IMG/VR virus record: IMGVR_UViG_2778261454_000011
Location: 1-11,971 of that record
Strand: one strand, 5' to 3'
Source: a virus
Taxonomy: Duplodnaviria; Heunggongvirae; Uroviricota; Caudoviricetes
Length of the DNA: 11,971 bases
Made by a program: the position numbers and the translations under genes. This document shows, in pieces, positions 1-11,971 of the stretch. Below the pieces are notes generated by a model. It made no database searches. It worked only from the letters and a program-made list of their open reading frames with translations, and was not told the DNA's origin. The first letter of the stretch is position 1; the number at the start of each line of letters is the position of its first letter.

Positions 1-112
1 AACTGAAGTTGCCCTGAAAATGAAATTTTTTTGCACAACCGCAGAACTTTTCCGCAGGGCATCAGTCTTAATTAGTGCCACTGCTTTTCTTTGATGTCCC
101 CATTTTGTGGAG

Positions 113-155
113 CCCATCAACCCCGCCATTTCGGTTCAAGGTTGATGGGTTTTTT
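113..155 (+). terminator. Rho-independent terminator-like hairpin (CCCATCAACC ... GGTTGATGGG followed by TTTTTT)
   Basis: A 10-bp perfect inverted repeat at 113..122 and 140..149 is followed by a T6 tract at 150..155 on the + strand. It may mark the 3' end of a flanking host transcript or sRNA just outside the prophage end. Confidence 0.4.
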
Positions 156-235
156 GTTGCCTGAAATTTATGCCTTTTAAAATCATGATGTTAGAAGCAG
201 TGTTTTTTAACGATGGCGACAAATTGGCGGCAGAG

Positions 236-454
236 TCAAAGAGAGAGCGCCACCTGTCCTGATTTCATTGGATGCGGCTGAACCGGATTTGACTCTTTTG
301 GCGTTGCAATCGAACGAACAAAAGTTTCATGGGTAACAAAAGTATGGCTGCAGTTAATGTTCTGGCACTGGTTGTAACGCTCTTTGGTCAATGAAGATAC
401 CTGAAAACTGCTGCGAGTATGGGCGGCACTTCCACACAGTGGGCAAATCATCAT
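236..454 (-). CDS. ogr: Ogr/Delta-family zinc-finger late-gene transcriptional activator
   Basis: A 72-codon ORF starts at ATG 454..452 and translates to MMICPLCGSAAH...YNQCQNINCSHTF, with the C-x2-C ... C-x4-C spacing and size of P2 Ogr. It sits at the end of the element directly downstream of the D-like ORF, as in P2. The longer track ORF starting at 487 has no homology support for its first 11 codons. Confidence 0.85.
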   Translation of the reverse strand: MMICPLCGSAAHTRSSFQVSSLTKERYNQCQNINCSHTFVTHETFVRSIATPKESNPVQPHPMKSGQVALSL

Positions 455-544
455 TTTTCGAGTTCTCCCCATTTTTGCTAAATTCACAATAATGATACCG
501 CATTATTCCATTTTGAAAACTTAAAAGTTCTCCATTGCGAAGAA

Positions 545-1162
545 TCATTCAATTTCGAAATCATCAATCTTCACTTCAAGCTCCAGACTGGTCGTAAAAC
601 CGTTATCCGGGCTGACAGTATGCGTCAGGGTGGTAATGGTCCATTCCGCATCATCTATCGGCTGTTTAAAGCCACTGACCTTCACAGGCATTTCCGTGTA
701 GAGATCTGCCCGACCTTCTGCCAGTTGTAGCGAGAATGACGCAACGCCGCGTTGCAGGCGTTCCCACTGCATTTTCGCCGCTCGTTCGGCGTTGCTCCGG
801 TTGGCATAAGTGCGATTAAGTACCAGCACGTTTTCATCCGTACCCACCAGGTAATCGCCCTGCTTCGCTTCCGGCTCTTTCTTCTGCTTCTTAGTCCTGC
901 GCTTACGCTTCACCGTGGTGCTTTCTTTCTTCTCGGGTTCCAGATTGCCGCCCAGACTCAGCAGCACCACCTGCTCACCTTCCGATGGTCGCCACCATGT
1001 GCGGGCATTACCCGCGCGCAGCGTCAGCCAGTTAATCCAGTTGGTTTCAAGGTCGCCCGTTTTCACCCGACAAAGCCAGTGTTCCCGGTCCACTTCGGTG
1101 ACTACACCAGTGCGGATCAGGTTGGTGATAAGGCGCATGATTTCGGTTAATTGTGCGTTCAT
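545..1162 (-). CDS. Chimeric tail ORF: baseplate spike gpV N-terminal domain fused to a probable late control gene D C-terminal fragment
   Basis: The N-terminal ~75 aa (LIRTGVVTEVD...CRVKTGDLETNWINWLTLRAGNARTWWRPSEGEQVVLLSLGGNLE) match the gpV N-terminal domain of P2 as recalled. The rest follows a K/R-rich linker and does not resemble the gpV C-terminus. Its position immediately upstream of ogr is where the 3' end of D lies in P2. At 205 aa it is far too short for an intact D. Confidence 0.55.
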   Translation of the reverse strand: MNAQLTEIMRLITNLIRTGVVTEVDREHWLCRVKTGDLETNWINWLTLRAGNARTWWRPSEGEQVVLLSLGGNLEPEKKESTTVKRKRRTKKQKKEPEAKQGDYLVGTDENVLVLNRTYANRSNAERAAKMQWERLQRGVASFSLQLAEGRADLYTEMPVKVSGFKQPIDDAEWTITTLTHTVSPDNGFTTSLELEVKIDDFEIE

Positions 1163-1262
1163 AATTTAATCATGCCGAGATAAGATTGATAAAAAAACTC
1201 TTTAGTTTTGTGCCAGTTATGATACAAAGTGCATTTACTCATGGACTAAATAAAGGATTCCT

Positions 1263-2522
1263 ATGTTTAGATTATCTAGTGTCAAGATTGAAGGTTTTTG
1301 GGGAAGACTAAATGCATCATGTTCATTTAATGAAGATGTAAATATTATTATTGGTCGAAATGGGACCGGTAAAACAACCTTTATGAATATTCTTCACTCA
1401 GTTCTGGCATTAGAACTCGAATCACTAAATGAGAATAGTTTTGATAATGTAACAATAAAAATAAAAGAAGGAAGCAAAACTAAAACAATAAAAGTTGTGA
1501 GTAAATTTGACATAACTAAAGCTTTGCCTACGTTTGAATATACAATTTCTAGAAAGAAATATATTATCAGATCCTTTGAAGATCGTAGACTACCTATATA
1601 TATGAGGAGAAAATATCAGGAAGACGTTGAAAAACTTAAGTTAGAGTTAGATAAATTAGTTGCTTTATCTTCTCTATCAGTTTACCGACTTAGAAGCGGT
1701 GAAGATTTTGAAATCAGAGACAAATATGGCTCAAAATTAATCAACCCTGTTGATTACCGATTAGAACAATTATTGCAGAACCTAACAAAATATCAACTTT
1801 ATTTATCACAAAGAGCTCGTGATGTTTCTGCAATATTACAGAAAGAGGTTCTTGCTTCTATTCTTTATAGTAAAGAAGATGGTATCGATGACACATTTAA
1901 CTTTTCTTTTGATAAAGAAAAAGAACGTAGAAATTTAATAGCTGCATATTCTCAGCTTGGAGCTTTTGATAGTGATGTCAGAAAGAAGATTAACTTTCAC
2001 GTTGAATCTATTGCCAATACATTTGAAGAATTACGACTTGCAGAAAAAAATAACAGAAATATTTTAAATGTAGATTACAGATCATTTGAGGCATTACGAA
2101 AGACGCAAAGAATTATAAAGATGTCTTTAAAATCCGAGGAGAAAATAAAAAACATATTTCTTCCTATAAATCTATTTTTAGAAACATTACATGAGTTCAT
2201 AACCGATAAAAAATTTAATTTTATCTCCGGTGAGTTAGTAATAGAAAATGAGCATGGGCCGATTAGCCATAGTAATTTATCGTCTGGTGAAAAACAGCTA
2301 TTAATTCTTTTTATTGAAACTTTGCTACAGCAAAACAAACCTTTCATCTATCTTACTGATGAACCAGAATTATCGCTACATATTGCATGGCAACGAAAAA
2401 TAATACCTGCAATCAAACAACTTAATCCTAATGCGCAAATTATCGCCGCTACGCATTCACCAGAAGTGGCTTCTAAATATCGAAATGCAATCTTTGATAT
2501 GGAGAAATTGGTTCATGGATGA
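1263..2522 (+). CDS. ariA: ABC-type / AAA_15-AAA_21 family ATPase, PARIS AriA-like
   Basis: A 419-aa ORF with an AAGGA ribosome-binding site 7 nt upstream. It carries Walker A GRNGTGKTT (K37), an ABC-signature-like LSSGEKQ, Walker B FIYLTDEPELSLH and an H-loop AATHSPE. The region is strongly AT-rich compared with the flanking phage genes. Its stop overlaps the start of the next gene (ATGGATGA). Confidence 0.7.
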   Translation: MFRLSSVKIEGFWGRLNASCSFNEDVNIIIGRNGTGKTTFMNILHSVLALELESLNENSFDNVTIKIKEGSKTKTIKVVSKFDITKALPTFEYTISRKKYIIRSFEDRRLPIYMRRKYQEDVEKLKLELDKLVALSSLSVYRLRSGEDFEIRDKYGSKLINPVDYRLEQLLQNLTKYQLYLSQRARDVSAILQKEVLASILYSKEDGIDDTFNFSFDKEKERRNLIAAYSQLGAFDSDVRKKINFHVESIANTFEELRLAEKNNRNILNVDYRSFEALRKTQRIIKMSLKSEEKIKNIFLPINLFLETLHEFITDKKFNFISGELVIENEHGPISHSNLSSGEKQLLILFIETLLQQNKPFIYLTDEPELSLHIAWQRKIIPAIKQLNPNAQIIAATHSPEVASKYRNAIFDMEKLVHG

Positions 2523-3366
2523 TTTCCATTATTCTGCCGAAGCAGAAAATGTAATGAATTTATTTTACCAAGCTGAAGCCATGGTTTATGTTGAAGGCCC
2601 AGATGATATTTGCTTTTGGGAAATCATCTTTAATAAAGCTAGTTCATTAAAGGTTGAAATCAAAGATGTTGGCGGCTGTGAAGAATTAAAAAAATATATT
2701 GATAGAGTTACTGATGAAGATCTTCAAATTATAATTGCATGTGATGCAGACTTCACTACATTTGAAAATGAGGAAAACGCTGATAGTCGTATTGTAAAAA
2801 CTTATGGGCACTCCATCGAAAACACGTTTATTGACAAAACAGGCATATATAAGGCAATAAAAACTCTCGGAAAATTACCTCAAAAGATAATGAACGATGT
2901 CAACGTCGATTCTTGGACAGAAGACTTTTATACCAAAATGGACCCCCTAATAAAACTTGATATATACAATCATATTTATAGAAAAGGCATTTCAGTTATT
3001 GGTGACAGTGCAGATCGTTTCATGAAATCTAGAAAATCAAATGAAATTTGCGAGCAAAAAATCACGAGTTACAAAAACACCATCATTGAAAAATTAGGTG
3101 TGGAATCAGATAACATCGATTCATCTTTCAAATCAAAATCGATAGAATACAGAAAGTGGCTTAGAGGTCATTTTCTATTTTCTGCAGTACATAGGTACAT
3201 TAGCACAACTGCAGAAAAAAATGGAAAAAAAGTATCCTTATCATATGAATCATTATATTCCAATTTAATGAATACATTTGAATCCAATTTTACCAATACT
3301 CATATTGAGTTTAATCATTACCACGAAAAAATTAAAGCCATAAATATGCCACACGAAATGAAATAA
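2515..3366 (+). CDS. ariB: DUF4435 / TOPRIM-like nuclease partner, PARIS AriB-like
   Basis: A 283-aa ORF starting at ATG 2515 with a GGAG 7 nt upstream, overlapping the ariA stop by 8 nt. Conserved acidic motifs VYVEGPDD (E27), IIACDADF (D-x-D) and YGHSIEN fit a TOPRIM-type catalytic core. It has the same AT-rich composition as the ATPase gene. Confidence 0.65.
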   Translation: MDDFHYSAEAENVMNLFYQAEAMVYVEGPDDICFWEIIFNKASSLKVEIKDVGGCEELKKYIDRVTDEDLQIIIACDADFTTFENEENADSRIVKTYGHSIENTFIDKTGIYKAIKTLGKLPQKIMNDVNVDSWTEDFYTKMDPLIKLDIYNHIYRKGISVIGDSADRFMKSRKSNEICEQKITSYKNTIIEKLGVESDNIDSSFKSKSIEYRKWLRGHFLFSAVHRYISTTAEKNGKKVSLSYESLYSNLMNTFESNFTNTHIEFNHYHEKIKAINMPHEMK

Positions 3367-3367
3367 G

Positions 3368-3390
3368 AAAAAATACAGATGTATTTTTAT
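3368..3390. terminator. AT-rich hairpin between convergent ariB and gene S, possible bidirectional terminator
   Basis: AAAAATACA..TGTATTTTT inverted repeat lying between the ariB stop (3366) and the S stop (3392). The stem is A/T only, so it is weak. Confidence 0.25.
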
Positions 3391-3391
3391 A

Positions 3392-3838
3392 TTATTTAGA
3401 TAACCATTCAAATAGGGTATCCTTGATTTGATAATATTCTTTATCGTGGATACCCAATAGCTTACGCTCTGCGTAACGGACCTCAGGTCCTTTGCGACTG
3501 ACGCGATCACGCAGGCCGTAGTGATGAACGCGGGCAATGCGCTGCACCTTGCCTTCAAACTGCACGCTGGCAGAATCGGCGCTGGCGGCAGTTTTCAGGT
3601 ATTTTGTGGTGCGCAGCTTCGCAAACATCTGACGTTTGATGCGCCCCTTTTTGCTGCGTGCTGTTACTCTGCGCGGCTCATAACTGCTGCCATCTGGATT
3701 GCGCTGCATCCTGATGTTCTGCTGCTGTGTCCGGCGCAGTTCCTGCGCCAGCTGGCGCATCATGCGGCTTCTGGCGGCTGGCTCCAGATTCGCCAGCAAG
3801 GCACTCAGCCAGTCGTCCACTTTCTGCAGTTCAGCCAC
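3392..3838 (-). CDS. S: Phage tail completion protein S (P2 gpS family)
   Basis: A 148-aa ORF, MAELQKVDDWLSALLANLEPAARSRMMRQLAQELRRTQQQ..., matching the P2-like gpS virion morphogenesis family. It overlaps the upstream R gene by 8 nt, as in P2. Confidence 0.8.
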   Translation of the reverse strand: MAELQKVDDWLSALLANLEPAARSRMMRQLAQELRRTQQQNIRMQRNPDGSSYEPRRVTARSKKGRIKRQMFAKLRTTKYLKTAASADSASVQFEGKVQRIARVHHYGLRDRVSRKGPEVRYAERKLLGIHDKEYYQIKDTLFEWLSK

Positions 3839-4262
3839 GTTTTACCGTCCACATTTCTTCAGGTTCATCGGGTTCCGCTACCGCTTCAACACTCGACACA
3901 CTGCCGTCAGTGCTGACAAGCACACGCTCCGTCAGTTGCAGGTTCAGGCTGATATCACAGACATCGTTGCGCAGAATATCCACCTCAAAGGTGAATAGTT
4001 TTTCCCGTAACGTCGGGTTATTGATGGCATCAGGCTGGTTATCCCGCAGCCACAGCAAAACCGGGGCCATCAGCAGATTCTGGTCGCCGCTGAAATCCTC
4101 AATCACCACGTTCAGGGTGTAGCGGTACTCCCATGACATGGAGCTGGTCCCCGTGGCAACCAGCGAACCGTTATCCACAAACAGATGCAGTTTGTCCGGG
4201 TTATTGCGGACATAAGGCACCGCTTTATTGAGGGCGCGGCGCAGGGATTGTGGTTTGTTCAC
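3831..4262 (-). CDS. R: Phage tail completion protein R (P2 gpR family)
   Basis: The translation ...KPQSLRRALNKAVPYVRNNPDKLHLFVDNGS...LLWLRDNQPD... aligns with P2 gpR. The start is set at GTG 4262..4260, which is preceded by AGGAG with 7-nt spacing and matches where P2 gpR begins. The track ORF extends to a TTG at 4283. Confidence 0.75.
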   Translation of the reverse strand: MNKPQSLRRALNKAVPYVRNNPDKLHLFVDNGSLVATGTSSMSWEYRYTLNVVIEDFSGDQNLLMAPVLLWLRDNQPDAINNPTLREKLFTFEVDILRNDVCDISLNLQLTERVLVSTDGSVSSVEAVAEPDEPEEMWTVKRG

Positions 4263-4515
4263 TGTTTCGCTCCTGACACGCAATAATCATGTCCACTTTG
4301 TCTGCACAGGCCGCCCAGGCGGCCTCCGTTTCGTCCAGCAACGCGTTCAGATCACCGTTAGTGTGCGGCGCCGCCTGATCCAACCGACACGGCGTCACTC
4401 GCGGACAACCACTGACGGTAAGCTGCACCTCCGGTGAGTGTCGGACGTTTCCGCAGCCGGATAATGTCAGCAGGCAAAGGAGTATCAGCCCAGCGGCGTA
4501 AATCCTCGTTCTCAC
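4225..4515 (-). CDS. lysC: Outer-membrane spanin lipoprotein (LysC / Rz1-like)
   Basis: The ORF lies in an alternative frame overlapping the 3' part of lysB and the start of R. Its N-terminus MRTRIYAAGLILLCLLTLSGC has a signal peptide and an L-S-G-C lipobox. The GTG start is uncertain. Confidence 0.55.
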   Translation of the reverse strand: MRTRIYAAGLILLCLLTLSGCGNVRHSPEVQLTVSGCPRVTPCRLDQAAPHTNGDLNALLDETEAAWAACADKVDMIIACQERNSEQTTIPAPRPQ

Positions 4516-4786
4516 GTTTCAGTTCCTCGATCCGGTGTTGTCGTTGTCTCAGCAGCGCGCTGGTCTGTTCTGCTTCGGCATAGAGCCGCGCCTGCTCCCG
4601 GTTATTGGTTTCAGTCAGAATGGACAGGCTGATAAGCTGGCTGTTGCTCTTTGCCAGTGCCTGGCTTTTGCTCTGCAGCTCGTCTGCCTGCGTGCTGATG
4701 GTCTGGCTGGCATCAGCCAGCCGCCACGTCTGCCAGCCCAGCACCGCCAGTAATAACGCCAGCATAACCAGCAGCAACCGGTTCAT
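4358..4786 (-). CDS. lysB: Inner-membrane spanin (LysB / Rz-like)
   Basis: A 142-aa ORF with an N-terminal transmembrane segment (MNRLLLVMLALLLAVLGWQTW) followed by a Q/E/R-rich coiled-coil-like region. Its ATG overlaps the lysA stop. Size and position match P2 lysB. Confidence 0.7.
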   Translation of the reverse strand: MNRLLLVMLALLLAVLGWQTWRLADASQTISTQADELQSKSQALAKSNSQLISLSILTETNNREQARLYAEAEQTSALLRQRQHRIEELKRENEDLRRWADTPLPADIIRLRKRPTLTGGAAYRQWLSASDAVSVGSGGAAH

Positions 4787-5160
4787 GCTGCTACCTGTTG
4801 CGCCATCTGATTACGGGTGATCCAGAAGGCAATAACGGTCAGCAGATAAAAGACCAGGGTAATAGCCCACCCCGTCCAGGCGAGACTGACGACAATCAGC
4901 ACTCGCATCACCCAGCTGATAAATACGTTTTCTTTTCGGGTAATTGTCTTCAGCAAAGATGCCCTCAACTCCTGCCAGAGCGAGCCATTCTTAATTAACG
5001 CAGCCAGTGCTACCGGAATTACCGCCCATGTCAGTAAACAGGCTACCCAAACGCCGGACGCTGCCAGTACCGGAAAAATCCCCTGCGGATACACCATTGC
5101 TGCAATTAACAGCGCCATCCATAACATCAGAAACAGCCCGCTGATTAATTTCTTTTTCAT
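4783..5160 (-). CDS. lysA: Membrane protein LysA-like (lysis timing accessory)
   Basis: A 125-aa ORF starting at ATG 5160..5158 (MKKKLISGLFLMLWMALLIAA...) with several hydrophobic helices, lying immediately upstream of lysB. The longer track ORF to 5310 is a read-through extension antisense to the terminase fragment. Confidence 0.6.
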   Translation of the reverse strand: MKKKLISGLFLMLWMALLIAAMVYPQGIFPVLAASGVWVACLLTWAVIPVALAALIKNGSLWQELRASLLKTITRKENVFISWVMRVLIVVSLAWTGWAITLVFYLLTVIAFWITRNQMAQQVAA

Positions 5161-5179
5161 TTCAGTTTGCTCCCTGTAA

Positions 5180-6388
5180 ACACCAGGCCATCTCCCGCGC
5201 ACGGCGGTTAAGGCACAGGCCCACGTCTTTAAGCAGTACATCATCGACTTCGCCAAAGAAGTGGAGGTGGAGCTGAAAGGCGATCCGATGGTGCTTCCCA
5301 ACGGGGCCACGCTTTACTTCCTCGGCACCAATGCCCGCACGGCCCAGAGTTACCACGGCAACCTGTATCTGGATGAATATTTCTGGATACCGAAATTCCA
5401 GGAGCTGCGCAAAGTGGCTTCCGGTATGGCTATTCACAAAAAATGGCGACAAACCTATTTTTCCACGCCATCCAGCCTGACACACAGTGCTTATCCGTTC
5501 TGGTCCGGTGCGCTGTTCAACCGTGGGCGCAACAAAGCCGATAAGGTGGACATCGACCTGTCCCACAGCAATCTGGCCCCCGGCCTGCTGTGCGCAGACG
5601 GGCAATACCGCCAGATAGTCACCGTGGAAGATGCGGTGCGCGGCGGCTGTAACCTGTTCGACCTTGACCAGTTGCGCATGGAGTACAGCCCGGACGAATA
5701 CCAGAACCTGCTGATGTGCGAGTTTGTGGACGATCTCGCGTCCGTGTTCCCGCTCAGCGAGCTGCAGGCGTGCATGGTAGACAGCTGGGAAGTCTGGACT
5801 GACTTTCATGCACTGGCCCTGCGCCCGTTTGGCTGGCGCGAAGTATGGATCGGTTATGACCCGGCGAAAGGTACGCAGAATGGCGACAGCGCCGGATGCG
5901 TGGTGGTGGCACCGCCAGCCGTGCCGGGCGGCAAGTTCCGCATTCTTGAGCGTCACCAGTGGCGCGGAATGGACTTTCGCGCCCAGGCTGACGCCATCAA
6001 AAACCTGACCGAACAGTACAACGTGACCTACATCGGCATCGACTCGACAGGTGTCGGCCACGGGGTTTACGAGAACGTGAAAGCGTTTTTTCCAGCCGTC
6101 CGGGAGTTTGTCTACAACCCCAACGTTAAAAACGCCCTGGTACTCAAGGCCTACGACATTATCAGTCACCGCCGTCTGGAGTTTGACGCCGGACACACCG
6201 ACATAGCGCAGTCATTTATGGCAATCCGTCGCGCCACCACCGCCAGCGGCAACCGCCCGACCTATGAAGCCAGCCGCAGCGAAGAAGCCAGCCATGCCGA
6301 TCTGGCCTGGGCAACCATGCACGCACTGTTTAACGAACCGCTGCAGGGCGAGTCCGCCAATACCAGCAATATTGTGGAGATTTTTTGA
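5180..6388 (+). pseudogene. P: Terminase large (ATPase) subunit gpP, N-terminally truncated fragment
   Basis: The open frame begins just after a stop at 5177..5179 with no start codon. Its translation (...KAQAHVFKQYIIDFAKEVEVELKGDPMVLPNGATLYFLGTNARTAQSYHGNLYLDEYFWIPKF...) matches the central and C-terminal parts of P2-type terminase P. About 400 aa remain against roughly 590 for intact P, and the fragment abuts lysA on the opposite strand with about 20 bp between them. Confidence 0.7.
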
Positions 6389-7413
6389 TGGGAAAGAGTA
6401 AGAAAAAACGCGCTGCGGCGACGAATCAGATCCAGCATAAAAACCAAACTTCAGCCGAAGCATTCAGCTTCGGTGATCCCGTTCCTGTTCTGGACCGCCG
6501 CGAACTGCTGGACTATGTGGAATGCGTACAGATGGATCGTTGGTATGAGCCGCCTGTGAGTTTCGACGGACTGGCGCGAACCTTCCGCGCCGCCGTGCAT
6601 CACAGCTCACCGATTGCAGTGAAGTGCAACATTCTGACCAGCACCTACATCCCTCACCCGCTGCTCAGCCAGCAGGCTTTTTCGCGTTTTGTGCAGGACT
6701 ATCTGGTTTTTGGTAACGCCTACCTGGAGAAACGCACGAACCGCTTCGGTGAAGTTATCGCCCTTGAGCCTGCACTGGCAAAATACACCCGACGCGGGTT
6801 AGACCTGGATACCTACTGGTTTGTGCAATACGGTATGACAACCCAGCCGTATCAGTTCACGAAAGGCAGCATCTTTCATCTGATGGAACCCGATATCAAC
6901 CAGGAGATCTACGGCCTGCCCGGTTATCTTTCTGCCATTCCGTCAGCTCTGCTCAACGAGTCCGCCACGCTGTTCCGACGCAAATATTATATTAATGGCA
7001 GCCATGCAGGATTCATAATGTACATGACCGATGCCGCTCAGAACCAGGAGGATGTGAACAACCTCCGCAACGCGATGAAAAGCGCCAAAGGGCCAGGCAA
7101 CTTCCGCAACCTGTTTATGTACTCGCCTAACGGCAAAAAAGACGGGCTTCAGATCATCCCATTGTCAGAAGTCGCGGCGAAGGATGAGTTTTTGAATATC
7201 AAAAATGTTAGTCGCGATGACATGATGGCGGCACACCGCGTGCCGCCGCAGATGATGGGGATTATGCCTAATAATGTTGGGGGATTTGGGGATGTGGAGA
7301 AGGCAAGCAAAGTGTTTGTGCGGAATGAGTTAATGCCATTGCAAAAGAATTTTGAATCACTGAATAACTGGGCTGGAAAAGAAATTATTTCATTTAATGA
7401 CTACTGTTTTTAA
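6388..7413 (+). CDS. Q: Portal (capsid) protein gpQ
   Basis: A 341-aa ORF starting at ATG 6388 with GGAGA 8 nt upstream, overlapping the P stop (TGATG). Size and position downstream of P match P2 portal Q. Confidence 0.75.
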   Translation: MGKSKKKRAAATNQIQHKNQTSAEAFSFGDPVPVLDRRELLDYVECVQMDRWYEPPVSFDGLARTFRAAVHHSSPIAVKCNILTSTYIPHPLLSQQAFSRFVQDYLVFGNAYLEKRTNRFGEVIALEPALAKYTRRGLDLDTYWFVQYGMTTQPYQFTKGSIFHLMEPDINQEIYGLPGYLSAIPSALLNESATLFRRKYYINGSHAGFIMYMTDAAQNQEDVNNLRNAMKSAKGPGNFRNLFMYSPNGKKDGLQIIPLSEVAAKDEFLNIKNVSRDDMMAAHRVPPQMMGIMPNNVGGFGDVEKASKVFVRNELMPLQKNFESLNNWAGKEIISFNDYCF

Positions 7414-7442
7414 GAAAATGCGCATGGAAATTTTCATGCGCA
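7411..7442 (-). terminator. Rho-independent terminator hairpin downstream of the RT gene
   Basis: An 8-bp stem TGCGCATG (7419..7426) pairs with CATGCGCA (7435..7442) around an 8-nt loop. On the - strand it is followed by TTTTCTT. It lies between the convergent Q and RT genes. Confidence 0.45.
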
Positions 7443-7448
7443 CACACG

Positions 7449-8378
7449 TTATTCTGATACTTCAGGTTGATATCTCTGGATTTCATCAATCAGCTCTGAT
7501 GAATATTTCGCACAAAGCCTATTAATAAATAATGGCTCAACACTTTTGCAATACGATAAATATCCTTGAAGAAATAGCCTTTTCTTCTCATCAAGAGCCT
7601 CCCATTTAAAAATAAGCGATTTAACCATCCTTTTTTTATCTCTCCCTAAGGATACTCCACCATCTGTTGTCAAAGTCACACCCGTAACCATCATTTTATT
7701 TTTCTTTGACATATGCAGTGTCTTTTTTCTATTAATCCATAGTTTTGATGGGTATTTTAAAGTTTTTAAATTCGAGCGTAAAAAAGGTGGTATTTGCTTC
7801 AATACATTTTCTTCGTTTGTTGAGAAGTACATATCATCAGCATAGCGTGTATATGTTACACCTTTTGAAAGACAAAATTCATTCAATATATGATCTAATT
7901 CATAGCATATAGCATTGCTTACCACAGGGGAACTAACAGCACCCATAGTCAGTCTCCCGTTAAAGCATACTATTTTTACCAGCAAATCAGTATCATCCTT
8001 TGACCAATCATCACTGAAGAAATGCTTGTTGTCGTTTATAAATCTCTCAACATCACTTTTCTTAATTGAATCAAAAAAACCTTCAAAGTCCATCTTAAGC
8101 ATAAAACGTTTAGCTTTGTGAATGCTTGCATGTTTGAACACTGATGAACCCTGCTGATATGCTACAGCATTTGGATGAATCGGCAATTTCGACAGAACAT
8201 TATCATGAAGTAATCTCTGCAAAACTTTTAATTCTTTAGAGGGCTGATAGACGATTCTTGTCCCACCGCCTTTTTTAGGTACAGAAAATTTACCATAATG
8301 CGAGTTAGCATCATTTGCAACTTTTAATATAAAATCAGCTTCTAACAGTAAAACTTTAGCTAGATACTCAATTAACAT
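7449..8378 (-). CDS. Retron-type reverse transcriptase
   Basis: A 309-aa ORF with RT motifs: IVYQPSKELKVLQ (finger region), KMDFEGFFDSI (motif A), YTRYADDMYFS (Y-x-D-D catalytic motif C) and a VTG triplet (MMVTGVTL) typical of retron RTs. Its ATG lies 1 nt after the stop of the upstream ORF. Confidence 0.8.
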   Translation of the reverse strand: MLIEYLAKVLLLEADFILKVANDANSHYGKFSVPKKGGGTRIVYQPSKELKVLQRLLHDNVLSKLPIHPNAVAYQQGSSVFKHASIHKAKRFMLKMDFEGFFDSIKKSDVERFINDNKHFFSDDWSKDDTDLLVKIVCFNGRLTMGAVSSPVVSNAICYELDHILNEFCLSKGVTYTRYADDMYFSTNEENVLKQIPPFLRSNLKTLKYPSKLWINRKKTLHMSKKNKMMVTGVTLTTDGGVSLGRDKKRMVKSLIFKWEALDEKKRLFLQGYLSYCKSVEPLFINRLCAKYSSELIDEIQRYQPEVSE

Positions 8379-8379
8379 A

Positions 8380-8622
8380 TCACATGATCCTTTCTAATTC
8401 TGCTTTGAATTTAGATATCATTATTAAATCGGATAATGATCTAGCTCTACTTCGTTGAATACTTTCAACTAAATCTTTCATCTTTTCATGATTAAAAAAT
8501 TTAATATAATCGACACATGAATAATGGGTCACGCCCTCAAATCGACTTTCCTTAAAAATCCCAAGAGCAACTCCAATAGAAACAATAAATGAAATATTTT
8601 TATTAATTTTATAATTTATCAA
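8380..8622 (-). CDS. Small ORF in frame with the upstream effector ORF (possible C-terminal effector fragment with a hydrophobic segment)
   Basis: An 80-codon ORF with a TTG start. It is in the same reading frame as 8665..9432 and separated from it by 14 sense codons and a single TAA. It contains the hydrophobic stretch ISFIVSIGVALGIF. Confidence 0.35.
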   Translation of the reverse strand: MINYKINKNISFIVSIGVALGIFKESRFEGVTHYSCVDYIKFFNHEKMKDLVESIQRSRARSLSDLIMISKFKAELERIM

Positions 8623-8664
8623 CCTGCCTGTGATATTAAATATCTCAGGAATTGTTATTGTACA

Positions 8665-9432
8665 TTAAGAAGATATAAGAACGAGAACAATAAATAATAT
8701 TATTTTTGGTGATTTTTTGTAATCTCCTATTGAATTTGTATTAGTTATGTTTGATTGAACTTTCCTATTTAGCCTTTCATTTATTTTAGGCATACACGTT
8801 AAAATTGTCTCAAATTCAGTATAGATTGTAGGGCCAAATTTGGATTCACTATCAACCCATTTTACGGGCCCTGTATTGATAAATGACTTATGACTTTCAA
8901 ACTTTTTATCTAATATAGGAAGAAGTTTTTTACGTAAAACAGGACTTAATGAAAATGCGCCCAATTCAGCTACAGTGCCATAACTCTCTACGAGAATAAT
9001 TACCACATCAGAAAAATCCGCAAGCCATTCTTCAAGTGATAACGCATTCACATTACTATGAGTTCCTAAATTGCTAATTACTTCCCATGCTAATTCTGCT
9101 CGAAAAGTAACAAATTCTTTATGATGCTTAGCAATATATTTTTCCAGCACCCCTCTATTTGAACAATAAGTCTCATCTCCTCCACAAATAAATAATACTT
9201 TTGGCAGGATATAATTAAAAGAATTCAAGTTACTTGGAAAAAAACTTGAAATAAAATTTTCTTTTGCTCGTAAATATCTAGGATGTTTAAACCACATAAC
9301 AATTAATGCCCATACAAGAGTTCCCGAGACACAAGTTAGCCTGGTGTCTATAAATGACACAAGGCTAACTTGTGTCGAGATACCAAGCAATCCATACGAG
9401 TTGGCTAAACACCAACCACTAGAAAGTAACAT
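8665..9432 (-). CDS. Retron effector candidate with a nucleoside 2-deoxyribosyltransferase-like (NDT-like) domain
   Basis: A 255-aa ORF carrying ...KVLFICGGDE... and ...VVIILVESYGTVAELGAFS..., which resemble the NDT-family motifs including the D/E-x-G-T-x-x-E-L-G catalytic region. The ATG at 9432 is preceded by AGGAAAG. It ends in a hydrophobic tail (KIILFIVLVLISS) followed by TAA. The start codon is uncertain. Confidence 0.55.
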   Translation of the reverse strand: MLLSSGWCLANSYGLLGISTQVSLVSFIDTRLTCVSGTLVWALIVMWFKHPRYLRAKENFISSFFPSNLNSFNYILPKVLFICGGDETYCSNRGVLEKYIAKHHKEFVTFRAELAWEVISNLGTHSNVNALSLEEWLADFSDVVIILVESYGTVAELGAFSLSPVLRKKLLPILDKKFESHKSFINTGPVKWVDSESKFGPTIYTEFETILTCMPKINERLNRKVQSNITNTNSIGDYKKSPKIILFIVLVLISS

Positions 9433-9455
9433 ATTGAATGTACTTTCCTGCTAAG

Positions 9456-9700
9456 GGCACAGCTAGGCTAGCACTAACATACGGATTATTCAAGTGAATG
9501 CAGCTCAGCGCGCGCTCGTATCCCCGCCACGCCTGCCCGCTTTATGTAGTGGTTTTCATGCAGGTGCATGATCTACGCAAAAGCCCGCCAGTTCTGGCGG
9601 GCCTTAGCAAAAACGATCCTCAAACGATCATGCAATCTCATGCAGCATAGACATGCACAGACGAGTAAAGCGAATCGGACTTTACGCAAGGTGAACTCCT
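9456..9700 (-). ncRNA. Candidate retron non-coding RNA (msr-msd) region
   Basis: A non-coding stretch upstream of the effector and RT operon that is dense in nested inverted repeats: TGCATGATC / GATCATGCA arms (about 9558..9660) enclose a GCCCGCCAG-N4-CTGGCGGGC hairpin (9584..9605), and a 12-bp palindrome CAGCGCGCGCTG lies near 9506..9517. An 8-9 bp inverted pair TGCTAAGG / CCTTAGCA near 9604..9612 and 9456..9464 could be a1/a2-like flanking repeats. The boundaries are not defined. Confidence 0.35.
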
Positions 9701-9874
9701 CAGCGGGTATAATCAGTATGTCGGAAAATCTCTAAAAATAAATAATTCGGTTAACAGGTATGCTTACAAAAGCATATATTTGATTAAAAATCATGTAAGG
9801 GGGAGGATCTCAAACTGAATCGCCACGGTTTTACAAATTTCGATAGTCTCTCTAACGTTTCGGCTGAGGTCAAA

Positions 9875-10300
9875 ATGAAAAGCTTTTACGTATTAATTTT
9901 AATTCTGGTTGCAAGCTTTGTTAGCGTCCCAGTTCAGGCGGTAACAGCTAAAAACTATGAGAAAGGAACTAAAGCTCAACAGAAATCAATATCTTACCTT
10001 TCATGTGCATTCTATGGCAGTAGCACACAATTAGATCCTAGCTACACGGGGCAAGTACCTACAGCCGATATCAAGATATTACAGAAAGCAGCTTACCACG
10101 CTTACAACGATGCGCTCTCATACTTTGGCTATGAGGAACCAGATCACGAACAACGCATAATTGATTATGCTGAATTTGTGGCGTCGCAAGAAGCTGTGTT
10201 ATGGGATAAGCCGGGAATGAATGGAAAGCAGGTAACACTAATTGCTCGTTCTCTCTACAATGAGAGTAACTGTAACTTGTTACTGGACTCAATTAAGTAG
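9875..10300 (+). CDS. Secreted or periplasmic protein of unknown function (signal peptide)
   Basis: A 141-aa ORF with GAGG 6 nt upstream of the ATG. The N-terminus MKSFYVLILILVASFVSVPVQA-VTA is a typical Sec signal peptide with an A-x-A cleavage site. I recognise no family for the mature part. Confidence 0.6.
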   Translation: MKSFYVLILILVASFVSVPVQAVTAKNYEKGTKAQQKSISYLSCAFYGSSTQLDPSYTGQVPTADIKILQKAAYHAYNDALSYFGYEEPDHEQRIIDYAEFVASQEAVLWDKPGMNGKQVTLIARSLYNESNCNLLLDSIK

Positions 10301-10459
10301 GAAAAAGATGGTATTTTGCCCGTAGTTTCAACCTTAATCTCCGAACCTGTCGCAGAACGGGCATTCACTCATCAAATAAACGCCACACCTAACGCCTCAC
10401 TGTACTCGTTGTTCAACCTTGCTGACGCCAGAACCAAGTTCAGACGCCAGCAACTTTTC

Positions 10460-10693
10460 TTAATGCAGCCAGCTGTCGTCTTCCCACACCTTCTGCATAA
10501 TTTTCATCACTTGTTTTCTTTCTTCGTCCAGTTGCAGTCCGGTCAGTTCCACACCGTTAGAGCTACCTTTGCGGATGCGAATTACCGTTTTGGGATACAG
10601 GGGGCGCAGATTGCGGTAAAGCTCTGATTCAAGGGCGTCCAGGGTAGACTGGCTAATCTTCTGCTCTTTATCGATCATTATTTCAATGCGCAT
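10460..10693 (-). CDS. dinI: DinI-family protein (SOS-associated RecA modulator homolog)
   Basis: A 77-aa ORF from ATG 10693..10691 with GAGGTG 6 nt upstream. The translation MRIEIMIDKEQKISQSTLDALESELYRNL...VMKIMQKVWEDDSWL aligns along its length with E. coli DinI (MRIEVTIAKTSPLPAGAIDALAGELSRRI...ILQETWESADDW). The track ORF start at 10765 is an unsupported extension. Confidence 0.75.
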   Translation of the reverse strand: MRIEIMIDKEQKISQSTLDALESELYRNLRPLYPKTVIRIRKGSSNGVELTGLQLDEERKQVMKIMQKVWEDDSWLH

Positions 10694-10703
10694 AAAAGTC
10701 ACC

Positions 10704-10892
10704 TCAACTGATGACGTCCATTGAGCGGTTGTATTCGTGAGTTCTGATTTTTGCCATGAGTTCATCAGTCAACTCAGAAACCCACTGCAGAGCCAGCCCC
10801 TTCTCTTCATCACTACACTCACTAGCCGCTACAAGCTTAAGAAAAAAATCAATGCGCTGGAGCTTCAAAGACTCCAAAAAATAGTCCTGCAT
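10704..10892 (-). CDS. Hypothetical 62-aa protein, first gene of a LexA-box-controlled operon
   Basis: A strong AGGAGG 4 nt upstream of ATG 10892. It ends 11 nt before the dinI-like start and lies directly downstream of the LexA boxes. No family was recognised. Confidence 0.5.
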   Translation of the reverse strand: MQDYFLESLKLQRIDFFLKLVAASECSDEEKGLALQWVSELTDELMAKIRTHEYNRSMDVIS

Positions 10893-10917
10893 CTTTCCTC
10901 CTATGACACCAAAACAA

Positions 10918-10950
10918 TACTGTATATATAATCACTGTTTATATTTACAG
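10918..10950. promoter_or_regulatory. LexA (SOS) operator: one consensus box plus an overlapping half-site
   Basis: CTGTTTATATTTACAG at 10935..10950 is a perfect CTGT-N8-ACAG SOS box with an AT-rich spacer. An overlapping TACTGTATATATAA left half-site lies at 10918..10931. Both sit in an AT-rich promoter-like region upstream of the orf62 and dinI-like genes on the - strand. Confidence 0.65.
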
Positions 10951-11212
10951 TATATAATAATCTTACTGATGTAAAACGTTTTTTTACGTTCATCAGCCTG
11001 ATATACCTGGTATTATTAAGAGCACGAATTGTTAACCCGCGTAATTAATACAGCTCCCGCCACTTATCATCTTCCTGCAAACGCTGGTTCCGATAGAAGA
11101 TACGCAGGCCTGCTCCTGACGGAATACTGCCGCCGCGAAGGAGTAAATCGACTTCTTTCTCGCTGCCATCAAATCCTCTGGACTTCAGTTCATAGACGAG
11201 CTGCTGTCGCTG

Positions 11213-11971
11213 ATGGTCTGTAATCCCCTTGCAACCGATCTCACATCTAAAATGTTTGCCCATTATCGAGATAAACGACTGACAGGTGAGATCTACTTCA
11301 GCGAGAAATGGAAGAAAGGGGCCAGCCCGGTCACCATTAACCTGGAGCAAAGCTATCTAAGTAGTGTTTTTAGCGAACTATCCCGCCTGGGCGAATGGTC
11401 GTATCCAAACCCACTGGAGAACATGCGAAAATTCACCATCGCAGAAAAAGAGATGGCATGGCTTACCCATGAGCAGATTGTTGAACTGCTGGATGATTGC
11501 AAACGTCAGGACCCAATTCTGGCACTGGTAGTCAAGATATGCTTAAGCACAGGCGCACGCTGGCGAGAAGCAATAAACCTTACCCGCTCACAGGTGACCA
11601 AATACCGAATTACCTTTGTCAGAACGAAGGGGAAGAAAAACAGAAGCATCCCTATCAGTAAAGAGCTTTACGAAGAGATCATGGCGCTCGATGGGTTCAA
11701 TTTCTTCACAGACTGCTATTTTCAATTTTTATCCGTGATGGAAAAAACGTCTATCGTGCTCCCTCGCGGTCAACTGACACACGTTCTGCGCCATACGTTT
11801 GCGGCGCATTTTATGATGTCGGGTGGAAATATCCTTGCTTTGCAAAAAATCCTCGGACATCACGACATAAAAATGACTATGCGTTACGCACATCTAGCAC
11901 CGGATCACCTGGAAACTGCATTACGGTTTAATCCGCTGGCAACACTACCAACATCAATAGCAAGTTTTTGA
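11213..11971 (+). CDS. int: Tyrosine recombinase / P2-type integrase, catalytic C-terminal part (N-terminus missing or frameshifted)
   Basis: The translation contains the catalytic signature of tyrosine recombinases: ...[11 protein letters not shown]... (Arg), ...[17 protein letters not shown]... (His-x-x-Arg), ...[15 protein letters not shown] (His, Tyr). It aligns with the C-terminal roughly 240 aa of P2 Int as recalled. The frame has an in-frame stop at 11144 and no arm-binding N-terminal domain. It runs to the window end at a TGA. Confidence 0.75.

What the first reader, a model, noticed from the sequence alone, without database searches (positions are those of the whole stretch)
5140..5200. 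lysA start abuts a headless terminase fragment: deletion of the capsid genes, holin and endolysin
The lysA ATG (5160) and the first terminase-like codon (5180) on the opposite strand are about 20 bp apart. In P2 the divergent P and O promoters and genes O, N, M, L, X, Y and K lie between them. The terminase fragment has no start codon and lacks the N-terminal part of the protein. What remains (lysA, lysB, lysC, R, S, part of P, Q) cannot form particles or lyse the cell. A second junction of this kind lies between the dinI module and the integrase fragment, where immunity and replication genes are missing.
Basis: partly seen in the sequence, partly recalled or inferred. Interest (0 to 1): 0.45.

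Follow-up and report, generated by a model that had tools for sequence, protein, structure and literature searches.

The report
Deletion scar in decayed P2-like prophage
This is the scar of a 4.7-kb deletion that removed the capsid and lysis genes from a P2-like prophage in E. coli; prophage decay of this kind is ordinary, but the same base in the endolysin gene is the breakpoint in at least twelve independent deletions, which random decay does not explain.

Summary
The finding is real, but its coordinates are about 30 nt off. The junction lies at window 5209/5210, on a shared TA. Bases 5162-5210 are the last 49 nt of the endolysin gene K, not spacer. Terminase P resumes at codon 197 of 588.

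The nearest intact relative is E. coli EC21Z-063 (99.7-99.8% identical). Against it, 4,717 bp are missing: most of K, the holin, X, L, M, N, O, the O/P control region and P codons 1-196.

Two more scars lie in the window: D'|V' at 934-940 (about 12.3 kb lost) and A'|int' at 11222-11224 (6,263 bp lost). What remains is a ~12-kb remnant of a ~35.6-kb prophage at rybB/ybjL-rcdA. It keeps an intact PARIS system and a retron reverse transcriptase.

An independent assembly carries the identical junction. None of 5,426 complete E. coli genomes does.

The K-side endpoint is reused base for base with at least twelve different partners (P, Q, cII, L, D three times, lysB, tail fibre, U, E, T), and either flank can be the one retained. 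The window's P endpoint and sites in lysA, cII, Q and D recur too. Half of the mapped junctions share a TA. The cause is unknown. The deletion is ordinary; the hot spots are not.

The parts
80..158 (+). Host RybB sRNA gene. Its terminator holds the prophage attL core ATGGGTTTTTTGTT (145-158).
   Evidence: Rfam RF00110, 105 bits. The 14-bp direct repeat is shared with the attR side in strain GF31.
236..454 (-). ogr/delta-type late-gene activator, intact.
   Evidence: Window 1-940 is 100% identical to GF31 (L004 6001-6940), where this gene is annotated as an ogr/Delta-like zinc finger protein.
545..1162 (-). In-frame fusion ORF: baseplate V residues 1 to about 75 joined to the C-terminal ~130 residues of tail protein D. 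This is deletion scar J1, at 934-940 (shared TTC). About 12.3 kb of tail genes are lost.
   Evidence: Pfam Phage_base_V plus Phage_GPD. BLAST blocks and junction sequences.
1263..3366 (+). PARIS defence system: AriA ATPase (1263-2522) and AriB DUF4435/Toprim (2515-3366). Both are intact and sit in the S/V cargo hotspot.
   Evidence: PADLOC AriA 5.8e-40 and AriB 7.7e-25. Pfam AAA_15/AAA_21 and DUF4435. Same gene lengths as in L003.
3392..4786 (-). Retained late genes: S (3392-3838), R (3831-4262), lysC (4225-4473), lysB (4358-4786).
   Evidence: Collinear with L003 14459-15853, where they are annotated as such.
4783..5160 (-). lysA-type gene (125 aa), intact.
   Evidence: PF28015 LysA / DNZ54_00345 family.
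5162..5210 (-). Remnant of endolysin gene K: the last 15 codons, the stop codon and 1 extra nt.
   Evidence: 100% identical to the 3' end of annotated lysozyme genes in intact prophages. Translates to NRRAREMAWCLQGAN*.
5209..5210 (.). Deletion junction J2. The dinucleotide TA is shared by the K side (GGCGGT[TA]TCCAG) and the P side (GCCAG[TA]AGGCAC). 4,717 bp are lost.
   Evidence: The same K endpoint is seen with at least 12 different partners.
5211..6388 (+). Headless terminase large-subunit fragment: P codons 197-588. It has no start codon and no promoter, and lacks the N-terminal DNA-binding domain and the P-loop-like motif.
   Evidence: No substitutions against L003.
6388..7413 (+). Portal gene Q, intact.
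   Evidence: Pfam Phage_portal. Collinear with L003 22172-23197.
7449..9432 (-). Retron type II-A (St85 family): RT (7449-8378, intact) and NDT-type effector (8380-9432). The effector is broken in this window by a stop codon at 8665-8667, inside a patch of 14 substitutions (8640-8725).
   Evidence: PADLOC RT_II-A 5.8e-105 and NDT_II-A. RefSeq annotation of L003. Comparison with L003 and L010.
9515..9533 (-). Candidate cohesive-end (cos) site.
   Evidence: Best match in the window to P2 cosL, 14 of 19 bases. This is weak: the next best matches score 13 of 19.
10460..10892 (-). DinI-like gene (10460-10693) and a small hypothetical gene (10704-10892).
   Evidence: Collinear with L003 26244-26676.
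11045..11224 (-). Last ~60 codons of replication gene A. Deletion scar J3 lies at 11222-11224 (shared AAT). 6,263 bp are lost: most of A, dam, the early genes, cII, cI and int codons 1 to about 95.
11225..11971 (+). Integrase fragment, from about codon 96 to the stop.
   Evidence: 100% identical to L003 33272-34018. Pfam Int_N (partial) and Phage_integrase.

Best explanation
The window is a ~12-kb cryptic remnant of a ~35.6-kb P2/186-like prophage integrated at the 3' end of rybB, between ybjL and rcdA, in E. coli. It derives from a prophage almost identical to that of strain EC21Z-063 by three separate homology-independent (illegitimate) deletions.

The deletion in the finding removed 4,717 bp. 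It joins the base 49 nt from the end of endolysin gene K to codon 197 of terminase gene P, at a shared TA dinucleotide. This is shown.

The deletion is recent: the retained P' and Q sequences carry no substitutions against the intact relative. This is shown.

The remnant has lost capsid, scaffold, small terminase, head completion, holin, most of the endolysin, nearly all tail genes, replication, immunity and the integrase N-terminus. It should therefore be unable to excise, replicate, assemble or lyse, while still carrying an intact PARIS system and a retron RT. This is inferred from gene content.

The K-side endpoint was probably not hit at random. The same phosphodiester is an endpoint in at least twelve independent deletions in other strains. 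My reading is that a DNA end forms preferentially at this TA, by a nick or a 2-nt staggered break, and is then joined to a second end with 0-6 nt of microhomology, usually another TA. This is inferred, and the agent is unknown.
For: Deletion:
- Collinearity with L003 at 99.7-99.8% identity in three blocks, with 2-3-nt overlaps.
- Annotated gene content of the missing segment.
- Terminase profile truncated at position 37 of 215; the fragment starts at codon 197.
- The same junction is in an independent assembly.
- No IS or foreign DNA at the junction.
- No substitutions in window 5211-8639 against L003.

Hot spot:
- The identical K endpoint is joined to Q (13C1079T), cII (L007), L (L014), D (BE2-5, L031, L032), lysB (L030), tail fibre H, U, E and T (L023, L019, L020, L021/22/24).
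- The left flanks fall into four haplotypes, two of them identical to intact prophages, so the events are independent.
- Seven of nine junction types seen in the last 27 codons of K fall at codon 155, p = 3e-9.
- The window's P endpoint is reused in L032 with the opposite flank kept.
- The Q endpoint 22273|22274 is reused exactly in L001 and L031.
- A site in lysA is used three times and a site in cII twice.
- Ten of 21 mapped junctions have TA inside the shared microhomology, against 1.55 expected.
Against: - No experiment was possible. Loss of function is inferred from gene content only.
- No nuclease, recombinase or mobile element could be tied to the hot spot.
- The octamer GGTTATCC at the site occurs five times in the intact prophage, and the other four copies were not seen as endpoints, so the sequence alone does not explain it.
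- Two K-site junctions (L and Q partners) have no TA in the partner.
- Part of the sample was ascertained through fusion ORFs next to K and lysA. That favours junctions in this region, though not at one particular base.
- Selection for losing the lysis genes could enrich endpoints near K, but it cannot select a single phosphodiester.
Confidence: 0.9

Rival explanations
1. The deletion is one random microhomology-mediated event (replication slippage or alternative end joining). The shared endpoint in other strains is coincidence, or is inherited from one ancestral scar.
For: Microhomologies of 0-7 nt are typical of illegitimate recombination. Many other endpoints exist in these prophages, for example inside lysA.
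Against: At least twelve different partners join at the same base, with either flank retained. The flanks fall into four haplotypes. Carriers sit at different chromosomal sites: ybjL and ssrA. Homologous recombination can move a scar into a new background but cannot pair one half-scar with a new partner. Seven of nine junction types fall at one codon, p = 3e-9.
Confidence: 0.07
2. A mobile element with a TA target (for example an IS630/Tc1-type IS or a MITE) once sat at this TA in K. Faulty excision, or element-mediated deletion, removed the element together with DNA on one side, leaving a clean scar.
For: Both flanks appear to keep the TA. Left-retained flanks end ...GGTTA with no microhomology (L014). 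All seven right-retained K fusions keep the GAT codon, and in at least four the next codon starts with A. That pattern resembles a 2-bp target duplication.
Against: No copy of K interrupted by foreign DNA was found. Every tail attached to K at this codon is phage sequence. Pattern scans of viral, metagenome and species-representative genome collections found no insertion at the site. The model needs the same rare insertion in many lineages and at several other hot spots. IS2 end similarity is not significant.
Confidence: 0.12
3. A sequence-preferring nuclease or recombinase cuts induced or replicating P2-like DNA at a limited set of sites, and survivors re-join the fragments. The agent could be an OLD/Toprim-family defence nuclease such as Gabija GajA, or a serine-type recombinase acting on pseudo-sites.
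For: - Endpoints come from a small reused set, and both flanks of each site are used: K, lysA, P, Q, cII, D.
- TA-TA joins look like cohesive 2-nt ends.
- Eleven of 14 TA sites have GG(N)TA on at least one strand, against a 23% background. This test is post hoc.
- The lysA site TTTTCGGGTAA matches the published optimal GajA motif TNNNC|GGGNNA exactly, and the K site CGGTTAT resembles its optimal half-site GGGTTAT (PMC8136825).
Against: - The published GajA nick lies 5 nt upstream of the observed breaks, and the K site is only near-cognate.
- The prophage's own invertase sites have a central AA and do not resemble the hot spots.
- The A-protein ori nick sequence, cos, the att core and Chi do not match.
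- No shared defence gene is seen among the carrier prophages.
Confidence: 0.3
4. The remnant is not decay. It is a streamlined helper-dependent element (satellite-like) that keeps cos, Q, ogr and defence cargo on purpose.
For: A cos-like sequence, an intact portal gene, ogr and an intact PARIS system are retained.
Against: The integrase lacks about 95 N-terminal residues. There is no replication gene. The terminase fragment has no start codon or P-loop. The cos match is weak at 14 of 19 bases. With no substitutions since the deletion, there has been no time for selection to show. The retron effector is broken in this copy.
Confidence: 0.03
5. The junction is a misassembly.
For: None of 5,426 complete E. 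coli genomes carries this junction.
Against: An independent Logan assembly (L010, with 4 similar places) has the same junction and the same two other scars within its span. A 2-nt overlap cannot cause a graph-assembly chimera.
Confidence: 0.01

Closest known systems
Cryptic (defective) P2-like prophages of E. coli that keep their defence cargo, as described for P2-like elements in PMC13586616 and for the cargo hotspots in PMC9122126
   Same: P2 gene order. Cargo at the S/V position (PARIS) and next to Q/cos (retron). Mobility and structural genes are lost while the defence genes stay near-identical to those of intact relatives.
   Different: Here the intact parent is available at about 99.8% identity, so all three scars are mapped to the base. 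The published survey reports 'no obvious pattern' in which core genes are lost and does not mention breakpoints or microhomology. Base-precise reuse of endpoints is not described there.
Bacteriophage P2 (AF063097) late region Q-P / O-N-M-L-X-Y-K-lysA-lysB-lysC-R-S
   Same: Same order and orientation. P and Q diverge from the O operon, and lysA-lysB-lysC-R-S follow K.
   Different: The early region is 186-like (cI, cII, fil, dam) in the intact relative. K and lysA differ from the P2 alleles. The cargo differs: PARIS and a retron instead of orf30 and old/tin. The integration site is rybB.
Deletions with one endpoint fixed at a replication-origin nick site, as described for M13 and pC194 (recalled from memory, not checked against a paper here)
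   Same: One endpoint fixed to the base, with variable partners showing little or no homology.
   Different: The fixed site here is not the phage ori. The P2 nick sequence GCGCCTCG|GAGTCC, and its counterpart in this phage, do not resemble GGCGGTTA|TCCAG. There are several fixed sites, and both flanks of each are used.
Recognition sequence of the Gabija nuclease GajA (PMC8136825)
   Same: A G-rich core followed by an AT wing. The lysA hot spot TTTTCGGGTAA equals the optimal motif TNNNC|GGGNNA, and the K hot spot contains CGGTTAT against the optimal GGGTTAT.
   Different: The published nick is 5 nt upstream of the observed breakpoints. The K site is not a full match. No Gabija gene was linked to the carrier strains. 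The resemblance was found post hoc.

Membership tests
P2-like (Peduoviridae) prophage | Late-gene synteny: Q-P divergent from O..K-lysA-lysB-lysC-R-S-V..D-ogr | tested here: met
   The remaining genes keep P2 order and orientation. The intact relative has the full set.
P2-like (Peduoviridae) prophage | P2-type terminase, portal, tail and activator proteins | tested here: met
   Pfam Terminase_6N/6C, Phage_portal, Phage_base_V and Phage_GPD. Neighbouring genes carry P2_Phage_GpR, Phage_tail_S and Ogr_Delta.
P2-like (Peduoviridae) prophage | Integrated between direct att core repeats | tested here: inconclusive
   The attL core ATGGGTTTTTTGTT is at window 145-158. attR lies about 460 bp beyond the window end and was seen only in strain GF31.
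Cryptic / defective prophage | Lacks genes essential for particle formation, lysis, replication and excision | tested here: met
   O, N, M, L, X, Y, most of K, P codons 1-196, W to U, most of D, most of A, cI, cII and the int N-terminus are all absent.
Cryptic / defective prophage | No particles and no lysis on induction | not testable with these tools
   Needs mitomycin C induction of the source strain.
Illegitimate (short- or no-homology) deletion | Junction with 0 to a few nt of microhomology and no recombinase site or repeat | tested here: met
   TA (J2), TTC (J1) and AAT (J3). The att core, invertase sites, cos and ori do not match.
Illegitimate (short- or no-homology) deletion | RecA independence and the enzymes involved | not testable with these tools
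   Needs genetics.
IS-mediated adjacent deletion | An IS copy remains at the junction | tested here: not met
   The junction is phage DNA on both sides to the base. There are no transposase ORFs in the window.
Invertase (Cin/Gin/Hin-type) recombination at pseudo-sites | Sites resemble TTCTCCCAAACC-AA-GGTATGCGAGAA, with crossover at the central dinucleotide | tested here: not met
   The prophage's own sites have a central AA/TT. The hot spots cross over at TA, 3 nt inside any GGT half-site.
GajA (Gabija) cleavage site | TNNNC|GGGNNA motif with a nick between C and GGG | tested here: inconclusive
   The motif is exact at the lysA hot spot and on the bottom strand of one T-gene site. It is only partial at the K site (window junction). 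The observed breaks lie 5 nt downstream of the published nick.
PARIS defence system | Adjacent AriA (ABC ATPase) and AriB (DUF4435/Toprim) genes | tested here: met
   PADLOC and Pfam hits; full-length ORFs. Activity was not tested.
Retron type II-A (St85 family) | RT plus an NDT-type effector, both intact | tested here: not met
   The RT is intact. The effector carries a premature stop at 8665-8667 in this window. It is intact in L003, and L010 has the L003 bases at all 14 changed positions.
Retron type II-A (St85 family) | msr/msd non-coding RNA | not tested
   There was no Rfam hit at gathering threshold. No dedicated search was made.

The most novel reading that the evidence does not exclude
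P2-like prophages do not decay by random deletion. They break at a small set of defined sites, of which the strongest is the TA in GGCGGT-TA-TCCAG, 49 nt from the end of the endolysin gene. The breaks would be made by a still unidentified TA-centred staggered nuclease or recombinase, possibly an OLD/Toprim-type defence enzyme activated when the prophage is induced. Survivors re-join the fragments, which produces domesticated remnants that keep their defence cargo.
Probability: 0.25. Interest if true: 0.75.

Novelty: new member of a known kind. Interest (0 to 1): 0.45.

Why it matters
As first described, the finding is a well-documented example of how a temperate phage becomes a harmless, defence-carrying genomic island, with the parent sequence in hand and every scar mapped to the base.

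What would matter more is the reuse of endpoints. If prophage decay proceeds through defined break sites, then domestication is partly a deterministic, enzyme-driven process. The sites would allow the responsible activity to be found by comparative genomics and by break-mapping in induced lysogens. Prophage remnants could also be dated and related to one another through their scars.

Tried and rejected
Explanations for the fixed K endpoint that were tested and not supported:
- DNA hairpins or palindromes. Both strands were folded at three hot spots and all z-scores lay between -0.6 and +0.8.
- The phage A-protein (rolling-circle) nick site. The P2 site is GCGCCTCG|GAGTCC and the homologous region of this phage is unrelated to the hot spot.
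- cos. There is no P2 cos within 3 mismatches, and the best cos-like site is at 9515-9533, far from K.
- The integrase att core.
- The invertase crossover sites, which have a central AA.
- Chi and Chi-like octamers, checked by eye with no match at the expected offset.
- IS2 terminal repeats. The similarity is no better than for 8-15% of random 30-mers.
- An inversion as the cause of the 14-substitution patch.

Motifs compared from memory only, and dropped because the cut position or sequence did not fit: the IS5 (YTAR) target, IS1 ends, IS91 (GTTC), IS608 (TTAC), integron G|TT, the gyrase consensus, dif/Xer, DnaA box, IHF, RuvC and RusA preferences, EcoKI, and relaxase nic sites.

Searches with little yield:
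- The species-representative genome collection gave no hit to the left-flank pattern, and only 4 hits to the reciprocal right-flank pattern, all in organisms with no similarity to the prophage.
- A literature search for the P2 nick site returned nothing directly useful.
Full report
WHAT IS AT THE COORDINATES

On the minus strand, an ORF with ATG at 5160 encodes a 125-aa LysA-family protein (PF28015 / DNZ54_00345).

On the plus strand, a terminase frame is open from 5180, just after a TAA, to 6388. It matches Pfam Terminase_6N only from profile position 37 of 215, plus a full Terminase_6C.

The true junction is not at 5180. Phage and E. coli matches to the terminase side begin at window 5209. 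Matches to the lysA side run on to 5210 and are annotated 'DNZ54_00345 family protein | lysozyme'. Window 5162-5210 is therefore the last 49 nt of endolysin gene K. It translates to NRRAREMAWCLQGAN*, and the stop lies 1 nt from the lysA ATG.

THE DELETION

The prophage of E. coli EC21Z-063 (locus L003) matches window 934-5210, 5209-11224 and 11222-11971 at 99.8%, 99.7% and 100% identity.

The sequences around the junction are:
- K side: GGCGGT[TA]TCCAGCC
- P side: CTGCCAG[TA]AGGCACAGG
- window: GGCGGT[TA]AGGCACAGG

L003 16278-20994 (4,717 bp) is missing. It holds:
- the lysozyme gene except its last 49 nt
- the HP1-family holin
- tail protein X
- head completion protein L
- the terminase endonuclease subunit M
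- the major capsid protein N
- the scaffold O
- the divergent O/P control region
- P codons 1-196

The intact P protein is 588 aa. The fragment starts at K197, directly after ...NQIFLSAS, so it lacks the N-terminal Terminase_5 domain and the SRQIGAT P-loop-like motif.

No IS, repeat or foreign DNA lies at the junction.

Window 5211-8639 has no substitution against L003. The event is therefore recent, and the intact look of Q and P' says nothing about selection.

IS IT REAL?

None of 5,426 complete E. coli genomes has this junction. However, a Logan assembly of SRR31598950 (L010, with four similar places not shown) has the same gene arrangement, and L010 is identical to the window over 8,378 nt apart from one patch. 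It is not a misassembly.

THE REST OF THE ELEMENT

- Window 1-940 is 100% identical to strain GF31 starting right after ybjL.
- RybB lies at 80-158, and its terminator holds the 14-bp att core at 145-158.
- Scar J1 (934-940, shared TTC) fuses V residues 1 to about 75 in frame to the C-terminal part of D. It removes about 12.3 kb of tail genes.
- Scar J3 (11222-11224, shared AAT) joins the last ~60 codons of replication gene A to int at about codon 96. It removes 6,263 bp holding replication, dam, cII, cI and the other early genes.

The window thus spans the remnant from attL to the end of int. No capsid genes are hidden elsewhere in it.

What survives intact:
- ogr
- PARIS AriA/AriB
- S, R, lysC, lysB, lysA
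- portal Q
- a type II-A retron RT
- a DinI-like gene

Retention of defence cargo in defective P2-like elements is already described in general terms (PMC13586616; hotspots in PMC9122126).

THE UNEXPECTED PART: REUSED BREAKPOINTS

In strain 13C1079T, a different prophage lineage at the same locus ends its K remnant at the same base but continues into portal Q at about codon 36: GGCGGTTA|CTGGACC.

I then looked for other sequences that follow ...CACGGCGGTTA with anything but the normal T, and for LysA and K proteins with foreign extensions. Mapping the contigs onto L003 gave these junctions at the same TA (L003 16276/16277).

With the lysA side kept:
- P (window, L010)
- Q (L001)
- cII (L007; fusion ORFs P0014, P0019 and P0022, the first on 18 contigs)
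- L codon 9 (L014)

With the K side kept:
- D at three different positions (BE2-5/L008, L031, L032)
- lysB (L030)
- tail fibre H (L023)
- U (L019)
- E (L020)
- T (L021, L022, L024)

That makes at least twelve partner types. Carriers sit at two chromosomal sites, ybjL and ssrA. Their left flanks fall into four haplotypes, two of them shared with intact prophages. The events are therefore independent.

Among the K homologues whose sequence diverges within the last 27 codons because of a large deletion, seven of nine junction types fall at codon 155 (p = 3e-9).

Other endpoints recur too:
- The window's own P endpoint (20993-20996) is used in L032 with the opposite flank kept.
- Q 22273|22274 is used exactly in L001 and L031, with opposite flanks.
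- A site in lysA (16009...TTTTCGGGTA|A) is used in three junctions.
- A site in cII is used in two.
- Two D endpoints lie 7 nt apart, one of them the window's J1.

PATTERN AT THE JUNCTIONS

- Microhomologies run from 0 to 7 nt.
- Ten of 21 mapped junctions have TA inside the shared bases, against 1.55 expected from a TA frequency of 4.4%.
- Seven of the nine K-site junctions in that set pair the TA with a TA in the partner.
- Flanks kept on the left end in ...GGTTA even when there is no microhomology (L014).
- All seven K fusions keep the GAT codon, and at least four continue with an A-initial codon. Both flanks therefore seem to keep the TA. A 2-nt staggered break or a lost 2-bp target duplication would give that result.
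- Eleven of 14 TA sites have GG(N)TA on at least one strand, against a 23% background. This test is post hoc.
- GGTTATCC occurs five times in the prophage, so the motif alone is not sufficient.

MECHANISM

Shown: a homology-independent deletion with a 2-nt TA overlap, and a K endpoint that is a strong recurrent breakpoint.

Inferred: DNA ends form preferentially at this TA and are then joined by a microhomology-assisted route.

Tested and not supported:
- hairpins
- the A-protein ori nick
- cos
- the att core
- invertase sites
- IS2 ends
- an IS left at the junction
- an element inserted at the site

The closest resemblance I found is to the published recognition sequence of the Gabija nuclease GajA: optimal TNNNC|GGGNNA, best half-site CC|GGGTTATT. 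The lysA hot spot matches it exactly and the K site partly. However, the published nick lies 5 nt from the observed breaks, and I could not link any such gene to the carriers. I treat this as a lead, not a result.

VERDICT

The junction coordinate and gene content need correcting.

As a feature it is a new member of a well-known kind, a cryptic P2-like prophage that keeps its defence cargo. The reuse of its breakpoints across strains is not explained by anything I could test, and it is the part that deserves follow-up.

Noticed in passing
window 8640-8725: There are 14 substitutions in 86 nt of the retron effector gene, all transversions (9 of the 14 are A-to-T on the plus strand), including a premature stop at 8665-8667. 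The rest of the 8.4-kb overlap with the sister contig L010 is identical. The patch is absent from L010, from L003 and from all complete E. coli genomes (best match 94.2%). It is not an inversion. It could be a sequencing or assembly error, or local hypermutation.
   Followed up: partly
window 545-1162 (junction 934-940): An in-frame V'-D' fusion ORF of 205 aa was created by a ~12.3-kb deletion of the tail genes. It still lies downstream of the V-operon promoter region. Another remnant (L031) has a D endpoint only 7 nt away.
   Followed up: partly
window 11045-11971 (junction 11222-11224): The last ~60 codons of replication gene A are joined to int at about codon 96 through a shared AAT. A new ATG at 11213 opens a 252-aa ORF that reads into the integrase catalytic domain.
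   Followed up: partly
window 80-158: The host sRNA gene rybB is present. The prophage att core (145-158) is the RybB terminator, so integration rebuilds the 3' end of the sRNA gene.
   Followed up: partly
window 1263-3366: An intact PARIS (AriA/AriB) system sits between S and V, the position of orf30 in P2. It has 4 substitutions against the intact relative.
   Followed up: partly
window 9433-9870: The non-coding stretch between the retron effector and a 141-aa secreted-looking ORF holds the best cos-like match (9515-9533, 14 of 19 to P2 cosL) and presumably the retron msr/msd. Here the retron cargo lies between Q and cos, unlike old/tin in P2. There was no Rfam hit.
   Followed up: partly
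window 9875-10300: A 141-aa ORF with a signal-peptide-like N-terminus. It has no Pfam or PADLOC hit and is annotated as hypothetical in relatives.
   Followed up: no
L003 16229-16280 region; proteins P0099-P0146: Dozens of 276-296-aa K-LysA fusion proteins (one of them, P0106, on 30 contigs, some from complete genomes) arise from small frameshifts in the last ~10 codons of K (for example ...NRRAREMA|CVYREQTEM...). This is either a recurrent sequencing error or a real slippery site that fuses endolysin to LysA.
   Followed up: no
L004 10132 (strain GF31); L001 (strain 13C1079T); BL21(DE3) hit H144: The same rybB/ybjL locus holds independently decayed versions of this prophage family. GF31 lost 17.5 kb, from tape measure T to just upstream of P. 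13C1079T has at least two scars. In BL21(DE3), hit elsewhere on the chromosome, the homology to K stops inside the gene and the matched stretch also overlaps an annotated GPO scaffold gene; that locus was not examined further.
   Followed up: partly
L003 17560-17600 (gene L start): The partner site in L (junction of L014) lies in a tandem 12-nt repeat, CCTGTTCTGGTG CCTGTTCTGGCG, which encodes APEQAPEQ.
   Followed up: no
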